The translations under genes were made by a program, and so were the position numbers. Positions 37,310 through 53,219 of a stretch of DNA of 64,000 nucleotides are shown here, one piece after another. Numbering within the stretch: the stretch's first letter is position 1; each line of letters opens with the position of its first letter. The stretch is from the human T2T-CHM13v2.0 reference genome, Homo sapiens, in NCBI RefSeq assembly GCF_009914755.1, contig NC_060940.1. One strand, written 5' to 3'. The notes under the pieces are model-generated. The model ran no database searches and was not told where the DNA came from. It was given only the letters and a program-made list of their open reading frames with translations.

Positions 37310-37567
37310 ATAACTAAGAGACATAATTCTTTGGCTAGTTATTCACATTAGAATTCTTTTTTTTTCCCCTTTTTAGCCCTTCTTTTACTGTAAATGTTGA
37401 ATTGAGAGTTAATTATTTGGAAGAGACAGGATAGTAACAGATAAGGGAGAGACAGGAGATGAGAGAAAAACAAAACTCTGTCAATGAAGATAAATCAGAC
37501 ATAAAAAAATGAATGAATGGGAATATAGGATATGATTGATAGGAAATGTATGTTTTTTGGAAATAAT

Positions 37568-37573
37568 TTTATT
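37568..37573 (-). terminator. UQCRC2: Candidate UQCRC2 distal polyA signal (AATAAA)
   Basis: TTTATT on the + strand. Confidence 0.55.
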
Positions 37574-37856
37574 GCAAAAAAGGCAAAACAGGGGTAAAAA
37601 CCAGACCATTTAGCTGTTGACACCCAAAATGACAAATTTTGAACTTGCTTTCATCTTAAACGCCACCAATAGTAATCTGGCACTATTTACCCCGATAGCC
37701 ACTTAGCCTTAATTTTAATAGTTTCTGATGCTTCTATACTCAATAATTATATTCCTGTCTCCTTTAAAGCATCTAAAACAAAGATATCAGCACATAATAA
37801 ATACTTGTTGATTAACTCATTGAGAAAAACGTAAGAAAAACACTTAAACAGAATGT

Positions 37857-37862
37857 TTTATT
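37857..37862 (-). terminator. UQCRC2: Candidate UQCRC2 proximal polyA signal (AATAAA)
   Basis: TTTATT on the + strand ~160 nt past the stop; T/GT-rich downstream on the - strand. Confidence 0.7.
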
Positions 37863-38019
37863 GACTTTAGGTCAGCTGGGAATAATTACCTGCATTTATG
37901 CCTTATTTTACCTCACTGGAAAAAAGACAAATGATATATTAGAGACTTCTGACTTTCATGTGTTTGCTGCTCTGGGCTGAGAGAACGTTCAGCTCTCTCC
38001 TGTAATGTGTGCATCAGTA

Positions 38020-38130
<111 letters not shown>

Positions 38131-38207
38131 TTAACAAAAATAAAAATATATATCATCAAGCAGGCGAACTTATTTTGTCATTTCAAGAATTTATGGATAG
38201 GACATTC

Positions 38208-38508
38208 TTTTTTTTTTTTTTTTTTTTGAGGTGGAGTCTCGCTCTGTCACCCAGTGTGGAGTGCAGTGCTGCGATCTTGGCTCACTGCAGCCTCCGCCTC
38301 CCAGGTTCAAGCAATTCTCTGCCTCACCCTCCCAAGGAGCTGGGATTACAGGCATGTATCACTATGCCCAGCTAATTTTTGTATTTTTAGTAGAGACGGG
38401 ATTTCGCCATGTTGGCCAGGCTGGTCTCAAACTCCTAGCCTCAAGTGATCCACTCACCTTAACCTCCCAAAGTGCTGGGATTACAGGCGTGAGCCACCAA
38501 CCTGGCCT
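38208..38508 (-). mobile_element. AluS
   Basis: TSD GATAGGACATTCT. Confidence 0.95.
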
Positions 38509-39051
38509 TCGATAGGACATTCTAAGCCAGCAATTACTATAATAGCTGTTGTGAAAATTAACTAGGAGATGGCTGGTGCTTTAATTTGGGACAGTGTGGG
38601 AGGAAAAGCTTAGCTGTTTCTCTGAAAGTCCCATTGTATGTGTAATGAACCAAGCAAGAGCAACACTGGTAAGAGGGTAGCTGTTCAAAGAGAGATAAGG
38701 AAAACAACACTGACACTGTCAAATAGAGTAGTGTGGCTTCAGGCAGGGATATACTTTCCTGTTTCGGTATTACAATGGCAAATAGTCTGGGTCAATAAAA
38801 ATACATTGATTGTTAACTTAAAAGTAAAACTTGATACCCTAGAGGATTCTTTATGCCACTACTTCCAAGTTCAAAGGCTGGTTAAGTGTAGTATCATGAG
38901 TCAGGTGTAGGTGGAGCAGCAGCCCCCATATTCTGTCAGGCCAGCTTATCTTATTACTATGAAGGAGAGGTGGTGGTGGAAGCAGTCGGGTTGGGACGCA
39001 CATAATGATAGGATATAAGATGAAGACAGCCATTTAAAAGAGTACCAAATG

Positions 39052-39345
39052 GGCTGGGCGCGTTGATTCACACCTGTAATCCCAGCACTTTGGAAGGCTG
39101 AGGCGGGTGGATCACGAGGTCAGGAGATCGAGACCATCCTGGCTAACATGGTAAAACCCCGTCTCTACTAAAAATACAAAAAATTAGCCGGCCGTGGTGG
39201 TGGGCACCTGTAGTCCCAGTTACTAGGAAGGCTGAGGCAGGAAAATGGCGTGAACCCGGGAGGCGGAGGTTGTACTGAGCCGAGATCGCGCCACTGCACT
39301 CCAGCCTGGGCAACAGAGCAAGACTCCGTCTCAAAAAAAAAAAAA
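39052..39345 (+). mobile_element. AluY
   Basis: Y diagnostics GAGATCGAGACCATCCTGGCTAAC and ATGGCGTGAACCCGGG; TSD-like AAGAGTA..AAATG. Confidence 0.93.
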
Positions 39346-39418
39346 AGAAGAGTATGAAATGACGATTGGGGCGAAGTGAAATCAAGTCAGGGTTACTATC
39401 TTAAAATAGCCTTGTCTC

Positions 39419-39718
39419 TTTTTTATTTGAGACAGGGTCTCACTCTGTTGCCCAGCCTGGAGTACAGTGGCATGATCTCGGCTCGCTGCAACCTCTGCCT
39501 CCCAGGCTCAAGCCACCTTCCCACCTCAGCCCCATGAGCTCCTGAGTAGCTGGGACTACAGGCGCATGCCACCAAGCCTAGCTAATTTTTGTACTTTTTT
39601 GTAGAGATGGGGTTTTGCTACATTGCCCAGTCTGGTATTGAACTCCTGGGCTCAAGCAATCTGCCCACCTCAGCCTTCCAAAGTGCTGGGATTACAGGAA
39701 TGAGCCACTGCACCCAGC
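39419..39718 (-). mobile_element. AluJ, inverted relative to the AluY
   Basis: Antisense J-type Alu. Confidence 0.9.
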
Positions 39719-40087
39719 TTAGTTTTTTATTTTTTCTTATCCCCACTGTCCCTATACAAGGTAGACCTGTTGGTGAGAAGATGGCCGAGACATCTACAGT
39801 AGAAAGCAAGTTGGCAAGTTTAATGTAGAAAATGGGGAAAACCCACTTACTTTGGATTAATTCTGTAGGTCATGTGCTTGTTAGGCACAGCAGGGAACAC
39901 AAAGAAGTACATGACATAGTCCTTGCCCTCAAAACAGCTCAATATTGTAGGGAACAATAATATATGTGAAAAAAAAATTAGCAAGAACAAGAGAATGTCC
40001 TAGGCTGAGAAGAGTAAAGAAAATCTTAAGATGCTAGATGGTGAAATATTGCTAGGACTGAAGAGGAAAAATAGCAAACTTCACTAT

Positions 40088-40273
40088 TTAGGTTGGATCA
40101 TATGAAACTGCTAATATTTGACTCTTCTTTACTTCTAGTCATCTAACATAAGCCCATTTTATAAACTACCATTAGTTTAACCTAACGTTTGATACGTTAG
40201 GTGTATTAAATGCACTTTTGACTGCCATCTCAGTGGATGGCAGCCCTCTTACTGACATCACAGTTTAACCTAA
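40088..40273. mobile_element. MADE2 (mariner MITE) with a foreign templated insert in its middle
   Basis: TTAGGTTGGATCATATGAAACTGCTAATATTTGAC left end and GTTTAACCTAA right end match recalled MADE2 termini; spans 186 bp rather than ~80. Confidence 0.65.
40187..40257. repeat. Left arm of a 71-bp inverted repeat (partner 41063-41133)
   Basis: 67 of 71 bases identical to the reverse complement of 41063-41133. Confidence 0.95.
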
Positions 40274-40490
40274 TGGTAGTTTATTTGAAGGAGGAAGATA
40301 CATATACTCGAGCTGACAGGGAAGCTTGTTGCGGATCTTATGGGAATGAGCCCTCCTGCCTCCACATTAAGTAGATGAGCACCAAACATGAGAATAATAC
40401 ACTGCCCAAGGACGCTTATGCATCCTTCTGAAATTGGATCATTAAGGTTAAGTTCTCTGTTGTTAAATCGTTAAGTTTTCATTTACTTAC

Positions 40491-40644
40491 ATTTATGATA
40501 TCAGCATTAGCCACTGAATCAATCTGCTGAAGGACTGTGGATGGTGGCATGTAAGAACCAGCAACTAGAGCCTGGGACCCGACTTCTTCCAGGAAACACT
40601 CAGAAGACTCCACTGACATTAGGTATCCAGCTTTCAGCTTGTTC
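40491..40644 (-). CDS. UQCRC2: UQCRC2 exon 13
   Basis: CAG|G...AAT|GTAAGT; encodes [24 protein letters not shown]...ADIIN; 154 nt. Confidence 0.97.
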
Positions 40645-41062
40645 CTGTCCAATAAAAGGCAGAAGTCAGTTTTAGAGAGCAAGGCAATTATTTTTTTTTT
40701 CTGAGTGGTGGCGGGGGGCTGTGAACATCAAAGCTTTATTTAATGGATAGAGTAACAGCGTGTCTCCCTCTTCCTGAATTCCCCAAGAAGAATGCCACTC
40801 CCTTCTCTGGAACATACTAAAACAGTAAGTCTGAAGGGAAGAAGTCTCTTCAGGGTTGCCAAAGTGTCCAATTGAGGGCCCACTTTGGCCTCCATTTGTG
40901 GGTCCATATGCTGCTACAGATTTGAGTGAGACAGCTGGAGAGCTCCCTAATGCTTCCCAAGGCCTCTGGATCCGGTTGTGCAATCTGGATCCTCTGCATG
41001 TCACTGGCCAGTCGCAGCATGCTCTTTCTCCTGCCCACTGGCACAGTGAGGAAGATCTCTGC

Positions 41063-41133
41063 TGTCAGTGAGAAGGCTGTCATCCACTGAGATGGCAGTC
41101 AAAAGTGCATTTAATACACCTAACGTATCGAAC
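41063..41133. repeat. Right arm of the 71-bp inverted repeat
   Basis: See left arm; spans a unique-DNA/MER47 junction. Confidence 0.95.
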
Positions 41134-41923
41134 ATCATAGCTTGGCCCAGGTTATCTCATATGTGCTCAGAACACTTACAATAGCCTGCAGCTGGGCAAA
41201 AGTCTTCTAACATAAGCCCATTTTGTAAGGAAGCATTGATTATCTCATGTACTGCATATCACTAGCCTAGGAAAAGATCGAAATTCAAGGTATAGTCATG
41301 TACTACATAATGATGTTTTTGGTCAATGATGGACCACATATATGATGGTGGTCCCGTTAAGATTATTAGGGAGCTGAAAGATTCCTATTACTTACTGACA
41401 ACATAATGTTGTAGTGCAATTTTAAAAAAATAAATTTAGCGTAGCCTATGTTTACAGTGTTTAGTATCTACAGCAGTGCACAGTAATGTCCCAGCCCTTC
41501 CCATTTACTCACCACTCACTCACTGACTCACTCGAAAGCAGGAGCTATGCCATAAAAATGGCATACCATTTTTTTATCTTTTGTGCTGTATTTTTACTGT
41601 ACCTTTCCTATGTTTAGATGCACAAATACTTACCTTTGTGTTATAACTGCCTACAGTATTCAGTACTATAGTACATGCTATACAGGTTTGTAGCCTAAGA
41701 GCAATAGACTATACCATAGAGCCCATGTGTGTAGTAGGCTATACCATCTGGATTTGTCTGAACACTGAGGTTCACACAGTGATGAAACCACCTAACACCA
41801 CATTTCTCAGAATGTATCCCCATCGTTATGTGACCCATGACTGGAAGCTGAAATTGCGATGGTTTTCCTCCATAGTCAAGTTGAAAAATTATAATTGATC
41901 CATGGCAAGTTGGGGACAGTGTA
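41098..41923 (+). mobile_element. MER47/Tigger5-type element, 5'-truncated and split by Tigger3
   Basis: GCATTTAATACACCTAAC.TA.CGAACATCATAGCTT...TGCTCAGAACACTTACA; resumes at 41844 to GTTGGGGACAG. Confidence 0.75.
41293..41843 (+). mobile_element. Tigger3 (Golem/MER7) non-autonomous element
   Basis: TIRs (T)AGTCATG...CATGACTG; internal GGTGGTCCCGTTAAGATTA...GAGCTGAAA. Confidence 0.85.
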
Positions 41924-43821
41924 TATTGTAAACCTACCTTTTGGCTGCTACAGTGTGAAGACCAGGGATCTTGAAGAGCCTTCTGTCAAACCAGGGTGTC
42001 AGGCCTGTACTTGGTGTCACCACAGACAACTCCACCTGGCCCACAGCTGGGGTCACAGTGTTATAAAGGTCACAGTCTTGACCTTTTCCTTTTGCCTTTT
42101 CCTTGTATGAAGTGGGTTCTCTTCTTGGATGGAGGATACCGTTCAATGCTTGTAGTTTGAAGATTCTCATGTTTATTTTCTTCTTATGCTATCGTTTCAC
42201 TTGTATTACCTGTGAGTTTTGGCAGGTTTCGGGGGTGTCTGAAGAGCTTCTGCTGTCTGTTTATTTCTGTGATATCCACTTCAGCTGTTGCTGCCTCTTT
42301 TAGGGCCTGTTTGTTTTCACCAAGGGTGAAGTAGTCAAGCCAGTTCCTCTTACACAGTGAAACAGGGCAATTTTAAGGTATGTGCCCCGAAACTCAACAT
42401 ATTTTTGGTAAACAGGCAAACTAACAACTTACAGTGCTAATGGCCTCCATTCTATTTCTTCAGTTCACCAAGTACGTGAACCGTTTACGTTACTATTTGG
42501 AAAGCTGTCAGTACGAAATTATACTGAAAACTCCACAGATTGCTTTTTGATTTGGGACTAGAACTTAGATCTAGGTAAAACTATTTTAATGTAAGGTTTT
42601 GATTAGTGAAGCAACTCCTGCCTCTTGCTGAGATTTGTCTGTGAGCATAGGGTATGATGGAAAAGGCAGGTGGGGAAGGGCAGTACAGGTCTTGTAAGCA
42701 ACGGCAGCTTAAATATGGGCACAAAAGCATCCACTTGAAATAAAACAAAATCCAATTCACAATTCTCCCAGAAACTTATTACTTATAGACATGGTGTTTG
42801 ATAAGACAGTCGAGTTATTTGAACCTCAAACGTTTATCATCCTTTAACACTCTACAGAAAGACTTCCATTTAAACATAATTACAATTTAATGCTGCAGTT
42901 TTACCACGTTGTCAGCTTAATTAAAAAATGATTTTACCTGCAATAAACTACCAAGAGGTTATTAGTGTGTCCTTTCGGCAATGACACCTCACTTTCTCTC
43001 TTTCACTACAGGAAGAACTTACAAGAAAAAGTATCAACTCCATCAAAATGGCAGAAAACATACTTTGACATTAATATTCAAAATTCTACTTTCTGCTTAT
43101 TACCATACCTTGTAAGAACTGTGTTACACTTATTAAGAAAATACGTTTTCTTAAATAAATTAGATTTGAAAAACTTAGGTTTTTCTTAAGTAAATCCAGT
43201 GTTTCAATGTATTCTCATCATGTTTTGTTTCTGGTACAATCAAGCAGCCCTGCATCCTATCGATTCTTGGTTCTATGTATACAATATTTAATAAATTGTG
43301 TTGTACTTATACAAGAGATGCAACTTTGTAGTGTGCTCAGCATAACAAAACTAACAATACTAATGGGAACAGAAATGACCAAAAGGTTGTTCCATCCTGG
43401 GTTGTAATTCTGCTTCCCCTGTGGGCAATACTAAATGATCATAACGACCACTGGAGTTGCAAGATTCACATTTTGAATTGTTCTAAGTAGATGGAGTCAA
43501 ACTTAAATGTCTTAAGCGGCTGTATGAAAATGCAGGTTGATTTCCAACTTTGTCCCAAGTCTGTCTCTTTTAGAGAAACCCTCGAACTACTAATGAATTA
43601 GGAGTGTTGATAGCACTTTCAATCTGGACAGTGGGGATTTATAAATTGCCAAATAGCAGACAAGTATTTTAGTCTTTCTTATAAAACAAAACAAAATCAG
43701 ATCTTTTTTGGGTATAAATTAGTTATGAAGAAAGAAACTATTGTAGAATAGGTACTCTTATATACTGGTGGTATGATTATAAACTGGTACAATCTCTTTA
43801 GATTTGTGACTTAGAAATACA

Positions 43822-44116
43822 TTTTTTTTTTTTAAGAGACAGGGTCTTGCTCTGTTGCCCAGGCTAGTGTGCAATGGCGTGATCTTAGTTCACTGCAGCC
43901 TCAAACTCGTGGGCTCAAGCAATCCCCCCTCTTCAGCCTCCTGAGTAGCTGAGGCTACAGGCACACACTACCACACCTGGCTAGTTTTAAATATCTTTTT
44001 GTAAAGACAGTGTCTTGCCACATTACCCAGGCTGGTTGAACTCCTGGCCTCAAGTGATCCTCCTGCCCCAGCCTCCCAAAGTCCTGGGATTACAGGTATG
44101 AGCAACTGCGCCTAGT
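43822..44116 (-). mobile_element. AluJ
   Basis: Antisense J-type Alu. Confidence 0.92.
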
Positions 44117-44441
44117 CAAATGTATTATTTAAACATACACACATACACACACTCTAACATGGAGTCTTTCGTTATGTTTATAACTCTTAACTTAGTTGGG
44201 AATCTACACCAAGAAAGTAATACGAAACACAAAAATATTTTAAGCCCAAAGATATCTTTATAACTGCAGAAAATGCACAAGTGTATTTTGACACACCAAT
44301 GAATATTGTTTAAATTTTTAGTAATTTGAATCAATGGAAACAGAATCATTGCTAGGGAAATCAGAGATCATTTTTGTCTTTTATTTGTAATTTTCAAACT
44401 TCTATAATAAGGATGCTATTTAAATAAGATAAAAAAGTATA

Positions 44442-44579
44442 CAGATGGTCCCTAACTTAACTTATGATGGTTTGACTTATGTTTGTTTGGCTGGATGACT
44501 GGGTTATTAGGGTATTAAATGCATTTTCGATATGCGCATTTCTCAGGACGTAACCCCAGTGTAAGTCAAGCAGCATCTA
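44442..44579 (-). mobile_element. Short MER47-type MITE
   Basis: TA|CAGATGGTCCC...GTATTAAATGCATTTTCGA...GCAGCATCT termini. Confidence 0.65.
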
Positions 44580-44624
44580 TATATACAATATTAACAATTA
44601 TGTTTAAAAATGCATGATCAATAA

Positions 44625-44885
<261 letters not shown>

Positions 44886-44945
44886 TGAAAAGAATACAAC
44901 TTTCAAATAACAAAAACATAAAACACAGTTAATACTGAGACTTAC

Positions 44946-45022
44946 TTGGCAGCTTGGACATCTGTGTTGGAAAGGTTTCCTTGAGCTATTGTTTTTACTT
45001 GATTATAGGCAGCCTTGATAAC
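44946..45022 (-). CDS. UQCRC2: UQCRC2 exon 12
   Basis: TAG|GTT...GCCAA|GTAAGT; encodes VIKAAYNQVKTIAQGNLSNTDVQAA; 77 nt. Confidence 0.97.
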
Positions 45023-45739
45023 CTAGGACAGATAAGAAAAGTTGGTCATCTGTGGTCAGTACCAGAGTCTCCTGCAGCACTGACACACTTCTTTACTGAG
45101 GCAAAAACACAGATGGAAGGTTAGTTCCAGACAAACAGCACAGTGTCCATGCGGAATGCTGTCATCACTATGGGTTCCTTATTCTTCCTATGTTCATAAA
45201 GCAGCTGTTTATACACAATCCTCCTGCCCCAGCCTCCCAAGAAGCTGGGACTACAGGTGCATGCTACCAGGCCTGGCTAATTTTTTAGCTTTTTTTGTAG
45301 AGATGTGTGGGCTCAAGTGATCCTCCCACCTTAACCTCCCAAAGTGTTGGGATTATAGGTGTGAGCCACCACACCCGGCCAAACACATGGATTTCTAATC
45401 ACCCATAAAGAATAAGCACCTTTAAAACTTCCCCAGACTCTTGCAGTGTCATGCCATTAATACTGCTATCTCTTACTATTCACTAAGAAGAGAGTAGTAA
45501 TCCATACACAGCCAATTTGTAAGGCTTGTCCATACTTTGTAAGCCAGGGTCAAGAAGGAATCTGAATCCTTGTATGGTATTTAAAAAAAGAAAGAAAGAA
45601 TAAAGTTCCGGGGATGTGGGTACTTGGTAAATATTTGTTGAATAAATAAATAAATCTGACCATGATTTTCTCCATCCCAGTGCTGGCTGGGTCTGCTACT
45701 TATTTTTCCCTCTGATCACCTAAATTCTAGGACCTCTGT

Positions 45740-48060: not shown

Positions 48061-48369
48061 CTTTTATTTATTTATTTATATATATTTTTGAGACAGAGTC
48101 TTGCTCTGTCACCCAGGCTGGAGTGCAGTGGCACGATCTCAGCTTACTGAATCCTCCGCCTCCTGGGTTCAAGTGATTCTTCTGCCTCAGCCTCCCAAGT
48201 AGCTGGGACTACAGGCGTGCGCCACCACGCCCAGACAATTTTTGTATTTTTAGTAGAGACAGGGTTTCACTGTGTTAGCCAGGATGGTCTTGATCTCCTG
48301 ACCTTGTGATCCGCCCAACTTGGCCTCCCAAAGTGCTGGGATTACAGGCGTGAGCCACTGTGCCTGGCC
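48061..48369 (-). mobile_element. AluSc/Y
   Basis: TSD ACTTCAATTTCTTT. Confidence 0.93.
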
Positions 48370-50114: not shown

Positions 50115-51535
<1,421 letters not shown>

Positions 51536-51649: not shown

Positions 51650-51937
51650 ATTTTTTTGAGACAGAGTCTCACTCTGTCGCCCTTGCTGGAGTGCAGTGGC
51701 ACGATCTCAGCTCACTGCAATCACTGCCTCCTGGGTTCAAGCGATTCTCCTCCTCAGCCCCCCGATAGCTGGGATTACAGGCATGTGTCACCATGCCCGA
51801 CTAATTTTTGTATTTTTAGTAGAGACGGGGTTTCGCCATGTTGGCTAGGCTGGTCTTGAACTCCTGACCTCAGGTGATCCGCCCGCCTCAGCCTCCCAAA
51901 GTGCTAGGATTACAGGCATGAGCCACCATGCCCAGCC
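51650..51937 (-). mobile_element. AluS
   Basis: Antisense full Alu. Confidence 0.93.
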
Positions 51938-52450
51938 TAGAATTTTAACAGATATGTTCAAAAAGATCTCCCAAAATGTTGTACTAGTTTATATTCCTAC
52001 TAACAATTTGTGAGAGTGCCTATTTCTCCATACCCTGGTTAATTCTGGGCAGAGTCCATCTTTTAATTTTGCCAACATCACAGATTAAAATTTTCTTAAT
52101 TATTAGTGAGGCTGATCATTTAAAACAAAGATAGTTGGCTACACATATACAAACATATTTCTCCCATGAACTGTCTGTTCATGCCCTTTGCCTGTTTTTC
52201 TAGTAAGCTGTACTTCCTTTTAAAAAAGTTTGTAAAAGCTCTTTGCTTTGAGAAATTCACCTTTGTCACAGGTTTTACAAATACTGTAAAGAATTTAAAG
52301 CCAGTGGTTTACAAATTTAAATGTTGGATTCTGCTTTCCAAAACAAATGACTAGCAATTAAAATCCTATGATATATTGCCTGTCTGACATAAATAGAAGG
52401 CCGAAGTTTTCAAATTTTGTTCAATCCTATGTTCACGTAATTACAGTTTA

Positions 52451-52847: not shown

Positions 52848-53219
<372 letters not shown>

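What the first reader, a model, noticed from the sequence alone, without database searches (positions are those of the whole stretch)
40187..41133. 71-bp non-Alu inverted repeat bracketing UQCRC2 exon 13
Seen: 40187-40257 is the reverse complement of 41063-41133 with only 4 mismatches, all transitions. One arm is in intron 12 and the other in intron 13, enclosing an ~805-nt loop that holds the whole 154-nt exon 13. Both arms cross the same unique-DNA/MER47 junction, so one was copied from the other and they are not independent transposon insertions. In the UQCRC2 pre-mRNA the duplex would have three A.C mismatches and one G.U pair. Established: intronic complementary arms can drive exon skipping or back-splicing, and A.C mismatches are favoured ADAR sites. 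Inference: this could be a lineage-specific RNA structure that loops out or circularises exon 13. Skipping is frameshifting, and a new stop in the last exon would escape NMD and alter the core-2 C-terminus.
Basis: partly seen in the sequence, partly recalled or inferred. Interest (0 to 1): 0.8.

Follow-up and report, generated by a model that had tools for sequence, protein, structure and literature searches.

The report
Copied inverted repeat around UQCRC2 exon 13
A 71-77 base piece of UQCRC2 intron 12 was copied backwards into intron 13, so the two copies could pair in the RNA and loop out exon 13, but nothing found here shows that this changes splicing, and it looks like an ordinary mutational scar.

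Summary
40187-40257 is the reverse complement of 41063-41133 with 4 transitions in 71 nt, extendable to 77 nt with 6 mismatches. In the pre-mRNA these give three A.C mismatches and one G.U pair.

The "unique DNA" in the arms is the truncated 5' end of an old CDCA8 processed pseudogene. It abuts an internally truncated, high-copy Tigger-like repeat. This junction occurs only at these two places in the genome. The intron-12 arm is the source and the intron-13 arm is the copy.

The copy lies in a compound patch. It is flanked by a perfect 12-nt direct duplication at the centre of a reconstructed 36-nt near-palindrome, next to a fragment of the same repeat family. This fits replication or repair template switching.

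The duplex is strongly predicted (-123.5 kcal/mol). Skipping exon 13 would shift the frame to a stop in the last exon.

Indirect evidence for a function is negative:
- All four catalogued UQCRC2 circRNAs end at exon 12, and inverted Alus explain them.
- Exon 13 is only 154 nt.
- No difference between the arms is compensated.
- Longer Alu pairs bracket other UQCRC2 exons.

Lineage specificity could not be tested. Most likely this is a neutral scar. Interest is low to moderate.

The parts
41057..41133 (-). Source arm, the 5' arm in the pre-mRNA, in intron 12. 41057-41098 is the 5' end of the CDCA8 retrocopy and about 41097-41133 is the Tigger-like repeat.
   Evidence: It is contiguous with the rest of the retrocopy and of the repeat.
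40187..40263 (-). Derived arm, the 3' arm in the pre-mRNA, in intron 13. It is an inverted copy of 41057-41133, with a 71-nt core at 40187-40257.
   Evidence: Apart from the source, it is the only other place in the genome with this junction.
40491..40644 (-). UQCRC2 exon 13 (154 nt), enclosed by the arms.
   Evidence: Hub annotation. Frame analysis. The primers of PMC13049743 map to exon 13 and exon 12.
40691..41098 (-). CDCA8 processed pseudogene. It is 5'-truncated, has an A10 tail remnant at 40691-40700 and an AAUAAA at 40735-40740, and has the same orientation as UQCRC2.
   Evidence: three parent exons on G000:C1 are joined without introns, at 75-88% identity; homology to a chr8 CDCA8 pseudogene runs to 41098. 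Sequence.
41097..41288 (.).
   Evidence: 3427 first-look candidates, and 34 of 40 scored matches cover this part; all 15 aligned copies continue upstream of the point that corresponds to 41097.
40137..40177 (.). Fragment of the same repeat family, in direct orientation, corresponding to 41201-41241. The first 24 nt have 1 mismatch to 41201-41224.
   Evidence: It is either co-copied from intron 12 or an independent fragment; one search does not discriminate.
40161..40183 (.). Left half of the local inverted repeat, i.e. of the reconstructed 36-nt near-palindrome.
40262..40284 (.). Right half of the local inverted repeat. Its first 12 nt (40262-40273) are a perfect direct duplicate of 40174-40185.

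Best explanation
The repeat is real and is a derived, non-Alu inverted duplication. An old CDCA8 processed pseudogene sits in intron 12 with its truncated 5' end against a truncated Tigger-like repeat. Later, 71-77 nt spanning exactly that junction were copied in inverted orientation into intron 13, about 870 bp away. The copy landed at the centre of a short hairpin-forming near-palindrome and duplicated 12 nt of the target. The most likely mechanism is replication or repair template switching (inferred). In the pre-mRNA the two copies are predicted to form a stable duplex of about 71-77 bp that encloses exon 13 in a 793-nt loop (shown in silico only). I consider it a neutral mutational scar with little or no effect on UQCRC2 processing. 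At most it yields rare exon-13 skipping, a rare small circle, or some A-to-I editing (inferred).
For: Origin:
- the right arm is contiguous with the retrocopy, whose three parent exons are joined at 75-88% identity. The junction-spanning part of the query (368-444) matches only itself and the left arm. 34 of the 41 matches cover the repeat part only.
- in all 15 family copies the repeat continues upstream of the point equivalent to 41097. The junction is therefore a unique truncation point, not an element end.
- at the three CDCA8-part differences the left arm keeps the parent's base and the right arm has changed; the fourth difference is decay of a CpG in the left arm. This is what a one-off copy followed by independent decay would give.
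- there is a 12/12 direct duplication on both sides of the insert. Removing the insert and one duplicate leaves a 36-mer that is self-complementary at 34 of 36 positions.
- the 64-kb window holds no other palindrome with perfect 15-nt arms and a spacer of 8 nt or less.

Duplex:
- -123.5 kcal/mol, with a mean pair probability of 0.91 in a 1401-nt context.

Neutrality:
- none of the 4 differences is compensated. All four remove a Watson-Crick pair, and one of them leaves a G.U wobble.
- all 4 UQCRC2 circRNA rows use the exon-12 donor, and the three with an annotated start span exons 5-12, 8-12 and 9-12.
- inverted Alus in intron 12 pair with introns 4, 7 and 8, which explains those circles.
- the Guo 2014 catalogue has 0 circRNAs in the gene.
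- (PMC4201285): repeats of 30-40 nt suffice for circularisation. However, ZKSCAN1 exons of 400 nt or less circularised poorly, and stronger hairpins sometimes inhibited it.
- the window has 56 inverted pairs of 50 nt or more within 3 kb. Longer Alu pairs bracket exon 8 and exons 9-10.
- the exon-13 5' splice site reads GUAAGU.
Against: - The duplex is long, nearly perfect, close to the exon, and has no competing partner elsewhere in the genome.
- UQCRC2 is abundantly transcribed (my own knowledge).
- Circles of 154 nt are under-detected by standard circRNA pipelines (my own knowledge).
- The Zheng 2016 table was cut at 14,146 rows, with the last visible row at 3 reads, so rarer events are invisible.
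- No RNA duplex-mapping, editing or junction-level RNA-seq data could be consulted.
- Junction microhomology for a template switch is weak (0-2 nt by eye), and the template lies about 870 bp away. That is further than the 100 bp used to define MMB-TIs in PMC8421209.
- Derived changes are uneven: 3 on the source arm against 1 on the copy. This is not statistically significant.
Confidence: 0.65

Rival explanations
1. This is a functional RNA structure. The duplex loops out exon 13 and measurably promotes either exon-13 skipping or a 154-nt exon-13 circle. Skipping would give an NMD-immune transcript encoding a C-terminally altered core protein 2.
For: A stable duplex is predicted. Repeats of 30-40 nt are sufficient for circularisation in minigenes (PMC4201285). 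Skipping shifts the frame to a stop in the last exon. The arms lie 412 and 227 nt from the splice sites.
Against: In the visible part of Zheng 2016, 0 of 4 UQCRC2 circRNAs include exon 13, and Guo 2014 has none in the gene. RefSeq lists a single transcript (hub annotation). Exons of 400 nt or less circularised poorly. No compensatory change is seen. The 5' splice site is strong. Longer Alu pairs bracket other constitutive UQCRC2 exons.
Confidence: 0.1
2. The duplex forms and serves mainly as an ADAR substrate, an intronic double-stranded RNA that is edited and may be bound by proteins that recognise inosine-containing RNA. It has no effect on exon 13 choice.
For: The duplex is 71-77 bp with three A.C mismatches. 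ADAR's preference for long double-stranded RNA and for A opposite C is recalled knowledge, not tested here. [quoted passage not shown]
Against: No paper in the library holds UQCRC2 together with 'A-to-I' and 'editing sites'. No editing database could be consulted. The reported MATR3 binding is not localised to the arms.
Confidence: 0.3
3. The mechanism of origin is different. The intron-13 copy was made from UQCRC2 intron-12 RNA by reverse transcription, through LINE-1-type or repair-associated insertion, rather than by DNA template switching.
For: On the + strand the left arm reads as the sense pre-mRNA sequence. A 12-nt target duplication is within the usual LINE-1 range (recalled).
Against: The insert has no poly(A) tract at either end. 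The adjacent repeat fragment and the local palindrome point to DNA-level switching.
Confidence: 0.08
4. The arms are independent insertions of a repeat, or a chance match.
For: Half of each arm is a high-copy repeat.
Against: The other half is CDCA8-derived, and the junction is found nowhere else in the genome. E = 9.8e-27.
Confidence: 0.01

Closest known systems
Intronic inverted repeats (reverse-complementary matches, usually Alu pairs) that promote back-splicing. Liang & Wilusz 2014, PMC4201285, passages read.
   Same: Complementary sequences lie in the two introns flanking an exon. The length is well above the 30-40 nt shown to be sufficient, and the arms are close to the splice sites.
   Different: The repeat is not Alu and arose by local copying. 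The enclosed exon is only 154 nt. No back-splice junction for it was found in the catalogues I could read.
Exon skipping by looping out an exon between complementary intronic sequences. Classic minigene work, recalled and not read here.
   Same: The geometry is the same: the exon and both of its splice sites lie inside the loop of a long stem.
   Different: No skipped isoform is annotated, and the effect is untested for this gene.
Template-switch mutations and microhomology-mediated templated insertions. PMC5453318, PMC9435742 and 10.1101/2021.04.15.439925 were seen as search listings with abstract starts. PMC8421209 was read in passages.
   Same: An inverted copy of nearby sequence was inserted and creates RNA-hairpin potential. 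The patch is compound, with several templated pieces, and sits on a quasi-palindrome. Such events accumulate in the germline.
   Different: The template is about 870 bp away, not within 100 bp. The copy is 71-77 nt long. Junction microhomology is weak or unresolved, and the ancestral allele was not available.
LINE-1-mediated processed pseudogenes (the CDCA8 retrocopy that supplies half of each arm).
   Same: It is intronless, 5'-truncated, and has a poly(A) remnant and a poly(A) signal.
   Different: No target-site duplication could be recognised. The missing half of the interrupted repeat is not on the other side of the retrocopy, where only 46 nt separate the A-tail from exon 13.

Membership tests
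circRNA-promoting intronic inverted repeats | Complementary sequences in the introns on both sides of the exon(s) | tested here: met
   plus the hub exon table.
circRNA-promoting intronic inverted repeats | At least about 30-40 nt of base pairing | tested here: met
   71-77 nt at -123.5 kcal/mol. The threshold comes from PMC4201285.
circRNA-promoting intronic inverted repeats | A back-splice junction of the enclosed exon is observed | tested here: not met
   0 of 4 UQCRC2 rows among the 14,146 visible rows of the Zheng 2016 supplement, which was cut when stored. 0 rows in the gene in Guo 2014. hsa_circ_0005690 spans exons 5-12. Small circles and rare events could have been missed.
circRNA-promoting intronic inverted repeats | An exon long enough to circularise efficiently | tested here: not met
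   Exon 13 is 154 nt. ZKSCAN1 exons of 400 nt or less circularised poorly. That is one minigene system, not a general law.
Template-switch / MMB-TI insertion | The insert is an inverted copy of a nearby template | tested here: met
Template-switch / MMB-TI insertion | Microhomology at the junctions | tested here: inconclusive
   0-2 nt by inspection. The 3' end of the copy is fuzzy (71 or 77 nt).
Template-switch / MMB-TI insertion | A pre-insertion allele is seen in an outgroup | not testable with these tools
   No primate or mammalian genomes are held. The 36-nt empty site is only a reconstruction.
Processed pseudogene (CDCA8) | Parent exons joined without introns, with a poly(A) tail | tested here: met
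   three exons that are 1.2-1.4 kb apart on G000:C1 are contiguous in the window. The A10 remnant is seen.
Processed pseudogene (CDCA8) | Target-site duplication | tested here: inconclusive
   None was recognised by eye. The element is old (75-88% identity to its parent).
ADAR-edited intronic dsRNA | Recorded A-to-I sites in the arms | not testable with these tools
   No editing database is available. A paper search found nothing.
MER47 / Tigger DNA transposon | Match to the named consensus | not testable with these tools
No repeat library is held. Only the high copy number and mutual similarity were shown.

The most novel reading that the evidence does not exclude
A template-switch insertion in the primate lineage created a private 71-77-bp duplex around a constitutive exon of a core respiratory-chain gene, and this duplex measurably alters processing of the last introns. 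Three routes are open. It could cause low-level exon-13 skipping that yields an NMD-immune, C-terminally recoded core protein 2. It could produce a 154-nt circle. Or it could form an edited double-stranded RNA that recruits MATR3-type proteins and influences splicing of intron 12, the intron in which a cryptic exon repressed by TDP-43 has been reported (a MATR3-repressed UQCRC2 cryptic exon is also reported, its intron not stated).
Probability: 0.1. Interest if true: 0.55.

Novelty: new member of a known kind. Interest (0 to 1): 0.28.

Why it matters
If the neutral reading is right, this is a clean, datable example of how local template switching can create long RNA duplex potential across an exon without any transposon insertion. 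It is useful as a case study but not surprising. If the duplex does act, it would be a lineage-specific modifier of a complex III core subunit whose loss causes mitochondrial disease. It would sit in the same intron as a cryptic exon already linked to TDP-43 loss; a MATR3-linked UQCRC2 cryptic exon is also reported, its intron not stated in the passages read. That possibility is cheap to test with existing RNA-seq data and primate alignments.

Tried and rejected
- Rfam gave only one sub-threshold chance hit, AfaR at 22 bits against a gathering score of 100.
- I first took the 24-28-nt direct repeat (40137-40164 against 41201-41228) as proof of co-copying, because it seemed to share derived states with the intron-12 element. 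One search weakened this: an unrelated family copy (L018) matches it equally well, 27/29 against 26/28. One search shows the family homology running on to about 40177. It may therefore be an independent fragment of the same subfamily.
- The genome search extended the left arm's repeat homology into 40173-40186 (85% with gaps). By inspection against L008 this looks like a spurious extension.
- No source was found in the window for the 9-22 nt between the repeat fragment and the arm. Only 10-12-nt chance matches turned up.
- The left flank 40089-40132 matches one other locus (L014, 91% over 44 nt). That match did not continue beyond the patch, so it could not define the empty site.
- No target-site duplication was found for the CDCA8 retrocopy, and the other half of the interrupted repeat is not beside it.
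- circRNA papers: PMC11895624 gives no exon or junction. PMC6216014 gives only an id without coordinates. PMC3764148 gives only gene-level counts. PMC5798954's supplement had no hit and PMC6257835's was not held.
- A full-text search for the predicted hg19 exon-13 coordinates returned only unrelated number strings.
- The cryptic exon reported in intron 12 could not be placed. Ma et al. 2022 give only the intron span, and the preprint's supplements are closed.

Full report
**Observation**

The repeat is exactly as described. 40187-40257 is the reverse complement of 41063-41133 over 71 nt, with four mismatches that are all transitions. The match can be extended to 77 nt (40187-40263 / 41057-41133) with two more mismatches and 793 nt between the arms. 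Read as UQCRC2 pre-mRNA (- strand), the 71-nt core has three A.C mismatches and one G.U wobble.

Chance is excluded. The 67-nt core gives E = 9.8e-27 in the window. Among 12 inverted pairs of 40 nt or more in 37500-45100, this pair is the most complementary, at 92% against 72-88% for the others. Exon 13 (154 nt) lies in the loop, 412 nt from the intron-12 arm and 227 nt from the intron-13 arm.

**What the arms are made of**

I searched the window's own genome with 40690-41140. Three exons of the parent gene on G000:C1 (37570206-37573203) aligned contiguously to 40771-41094 at 75-88% identity, and two other CDCA8 pseudogenes also matched. This is therefore the CDCA8 processed pseudogene of the hub annotation. 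It has the same orientation as UQCRC2. It carries an AAUAAA at 40735-40740 and an A10 remnant at 40691-40700, only 46 nt upstream of the exon-13 3' splice site. Homology to the chr8 pseudogene runs to 41098.

From 41097 onward the sequence is a high-copy interspersed repeat. The first look gave 3427 candidates, and 34 of the 40 scored matches cover this part. In all 15 copies that I aligned, the family sequence continues upstream of the point equivalent to 41097. The junction is therefore a unique truncation point and not a transposon end.

The junction-spanning part of the query matched only itself and the intron-13 arm. The other 34 of 41 matches cover the repeat half only. The two arms are therefore copies of one another. 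The intron-12 arm is the source, because it is contiguous with the rest of both the retrocopy and the repeat.

**Polarity and age**

At the three differences in the CDCA8 half, the intron-13 copy keeps the parent's base and the source arm has changed. The fourth difference is decay of a CpG that the source arm and one family copy (L008) retain as CpG (TG or CA in 12 of the other 14 copies). So there are 3 derived changes on the source arm and 1 on the copy, and none is compensatory.

Pairwise divergence is 5.6% over 71 nt. The retrocopy differs from its parent by 12-25%. As a rough inference, the copy is several-fold younger than the retrocopy. With only four substitutions the date is very uncertain, and no primate genomes are available here, so 'lineage-specific' remains untested.

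**How the copy was made**

The insert is flanked by a perfect 12-nt direct duplication (AGTTTAACCTAA, at 40174-40185 and 40262-40273). Removing the insert and one duplicate leaves a 36-mer that is self-complementary at 34 of 36 positions. The window has no other palindrome with perfect 15-nt arms.

The left half of this palindrome is the end of a short fragment of the same repeat family in direct orientation (40137 to about 40177). Its first 24 nt have 1 mismatch to 41201-41224. I first read this fragment as co-copied from intron 12. However, an unrelated family copy matches it equally well (27/29 against 26/28), so it may be an independent fragment.

The picture is an inverted copy of nearby DNA, a short target duplication, a quasi-palindrome, and several templated pieces. 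This is what short-range template switching and microhomology-mediated templated insertions produce. For these mechanisms I saw PMC5453318, PMC9435742 and 10.1101/2021.04.15.439925 as search listings with abstract starts, and read passages of PMC8421209. The fit is imperfect. The template is about 870 bp away, junction microhomology is 0-2 nt, and the ancestral allele is only a reconstruction. An RNA-templated origin cannot be excluded but lacks any poly(A) tract.

**Would the RNA structure form and act?**

In silico the duplex is very stable, at -123.5 kcal/mol. Its mean pair probability is 0.91 in a 1401-nt context. A local alternative fold around the 3' arm reaches only -53.4 kcal/mol. Skipping exon 13 removes 154 nt, shifts the frame, adds 37 new residues, and stops about 112 nt into the last exon.

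Several lines of indirect evidence argue against a noticeable effect:

1. Of the two UQCRC2 circRNAs named in main-text tables, the one with coordinates, hsa_circ_0005690 (hg19 chr16:21973780-21987564), spans exons 5-12; the other, hsa_circ_0038475, is listed without coordinates. In the Zheng 2016 supplement all four UQCRC2 rows share the exon-12 donor. That file was cut when stored, with 14,146 rows visible down to 3 reads. Three of the four rows have spliced lengths that match exons 5-12, 8-12 and 9-12 of the window exactly. The Guo 2014 catalogue has none in the gene.
2. These circles are explained by ordinary inverted Alus. The intron-12 Alus at 43822-44130 and 44641-44789 have inverted partners in introns 4, 7 and 8.
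3. In the minigene work that established 30-40-nt repeats as sufficient, exons of 400 nt or less circularised poorly, and stronger hairpins sometimes inhibited circularisation.
4. RefSeq lists one transcript (hub annotation), and the exon-13 5' splice site reads GUAAGU.
5. Inverted-repeat bracketing is common here. The window has 56 pairs of 50 nt or more within 3 kb. Longer Alu pairs surround exon 8 (173 nt) and exons 9-10 (238 nt), with larger predicted energies.

There are caveats. Small circles and rare isoforms are easily missed. No duplex-mapping, editing or junction-level data could be consulted. A library search for UQCRC2 together with A-to-I editing found nothing.

**A relevant neighbour**

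Two papers report a cryptic exon in UQCRC2. It lies 'between exon 12 and 13' and is repressed by TDP-43 (PMC13049743, passages). Their primers map to exon 12 and exon 13 of the window. A cryptic exon in UQCRC2 is also repressed by MATR3 (preprint 10.1101/2023.12.07.570685, passages; its supplements are closed). Ma et al. 2022 list only the whole intron-12 span.

The only UG-rich tract of intron 12 is at about 44135-44155, with plausible splice sites just upstream. My inference is that the cryptic exon lies there, about 3 kb from the arms. No link to the repeat is shown.

**Verdict**

The structural reading is confirmed and sharpened. The origin is most likely a template-switch insertion, and a function is unsupported. 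This is a new member of a known kind, of low to moderate interest.

Noticed in passing
window 40645-44945 (intron 12); UG-rich tract about 44135-44155: Intron 12 is reported to hold a cryptic exon repressed by TDP-43 (PMC13049743). A UQCRC2 cryptic exon is also repressed by MATR3 (preprint 10.1101/2023.12.07.570685). The texts I saw give no coordinates. The only UG-rich tract of the intron, with candidate splice sites just upstream, is about 3 kb from the arms.
   Followed up: partly
window 44946 (exon 12 5' splice site); Alus at 43822-44130 and 44641-44789: All four UQCRC2 circRNAs visible in the Zheng 2016 table use the exon-12 donor. The three with an annotated start use acceptors at exons 5, 8 and 9. 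The intron-12 Alus have inverted partners in introns 4, 7 and 8.
   Followed up: yes
window 40691-40740: The CDCA8 retrocopy places a sense-oriented AAUAAA and an A10 tract inside intron 12. The A10 tract lies only 46 nt upstream of the exon-13 3' splice site. The missing half of the interrupted repeat is not on that side.
   Followed up: partly
whole window (UQCRC2 on the - strand): The hg19 circRNA tables list UQCRC2 on the + strand, while the T2T-CHM13 window has it on the - strand. The segment is therefore inverted between the two assemblies. Exon-to-exon distances are otherwise identical.
   Followed up: no
window 20077-63661, + strand (PDZD9 read-through transcripts): The arms also lie in an intron of annotated long PDZD9 transcripts on the opposite strand. 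In that RNA the 71-nt core would have three G.U wobbles and one C.A mismatch, at -129.5 kcal/mol.
   Followed up: partly
window 40089-40132: A 44-nt stretch just left of the patch matches a single other genomic locus (G000:C1:164942395-164942437) at 91%. Its nature is unknown.
   Followed up: partly
window 41291-41500 and 44440-44500: A second, different interspersed repeat follows the Tigger-like fragment (5 of the 40 scored matches, about 75% identity). By recall, 44440-44500 on the - strand looks like a Tigger-type element terminus.
   Followed up: no
window 51766-51938 / 52887-53059 and 48067-48304 / 50371-50608: Inverted Alu pairs bracket exon 8 and exons 9-10 of UQCRC2. They are longer than the exon-13 arms and have larger predicted duplex energies.
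   Followed up: partly
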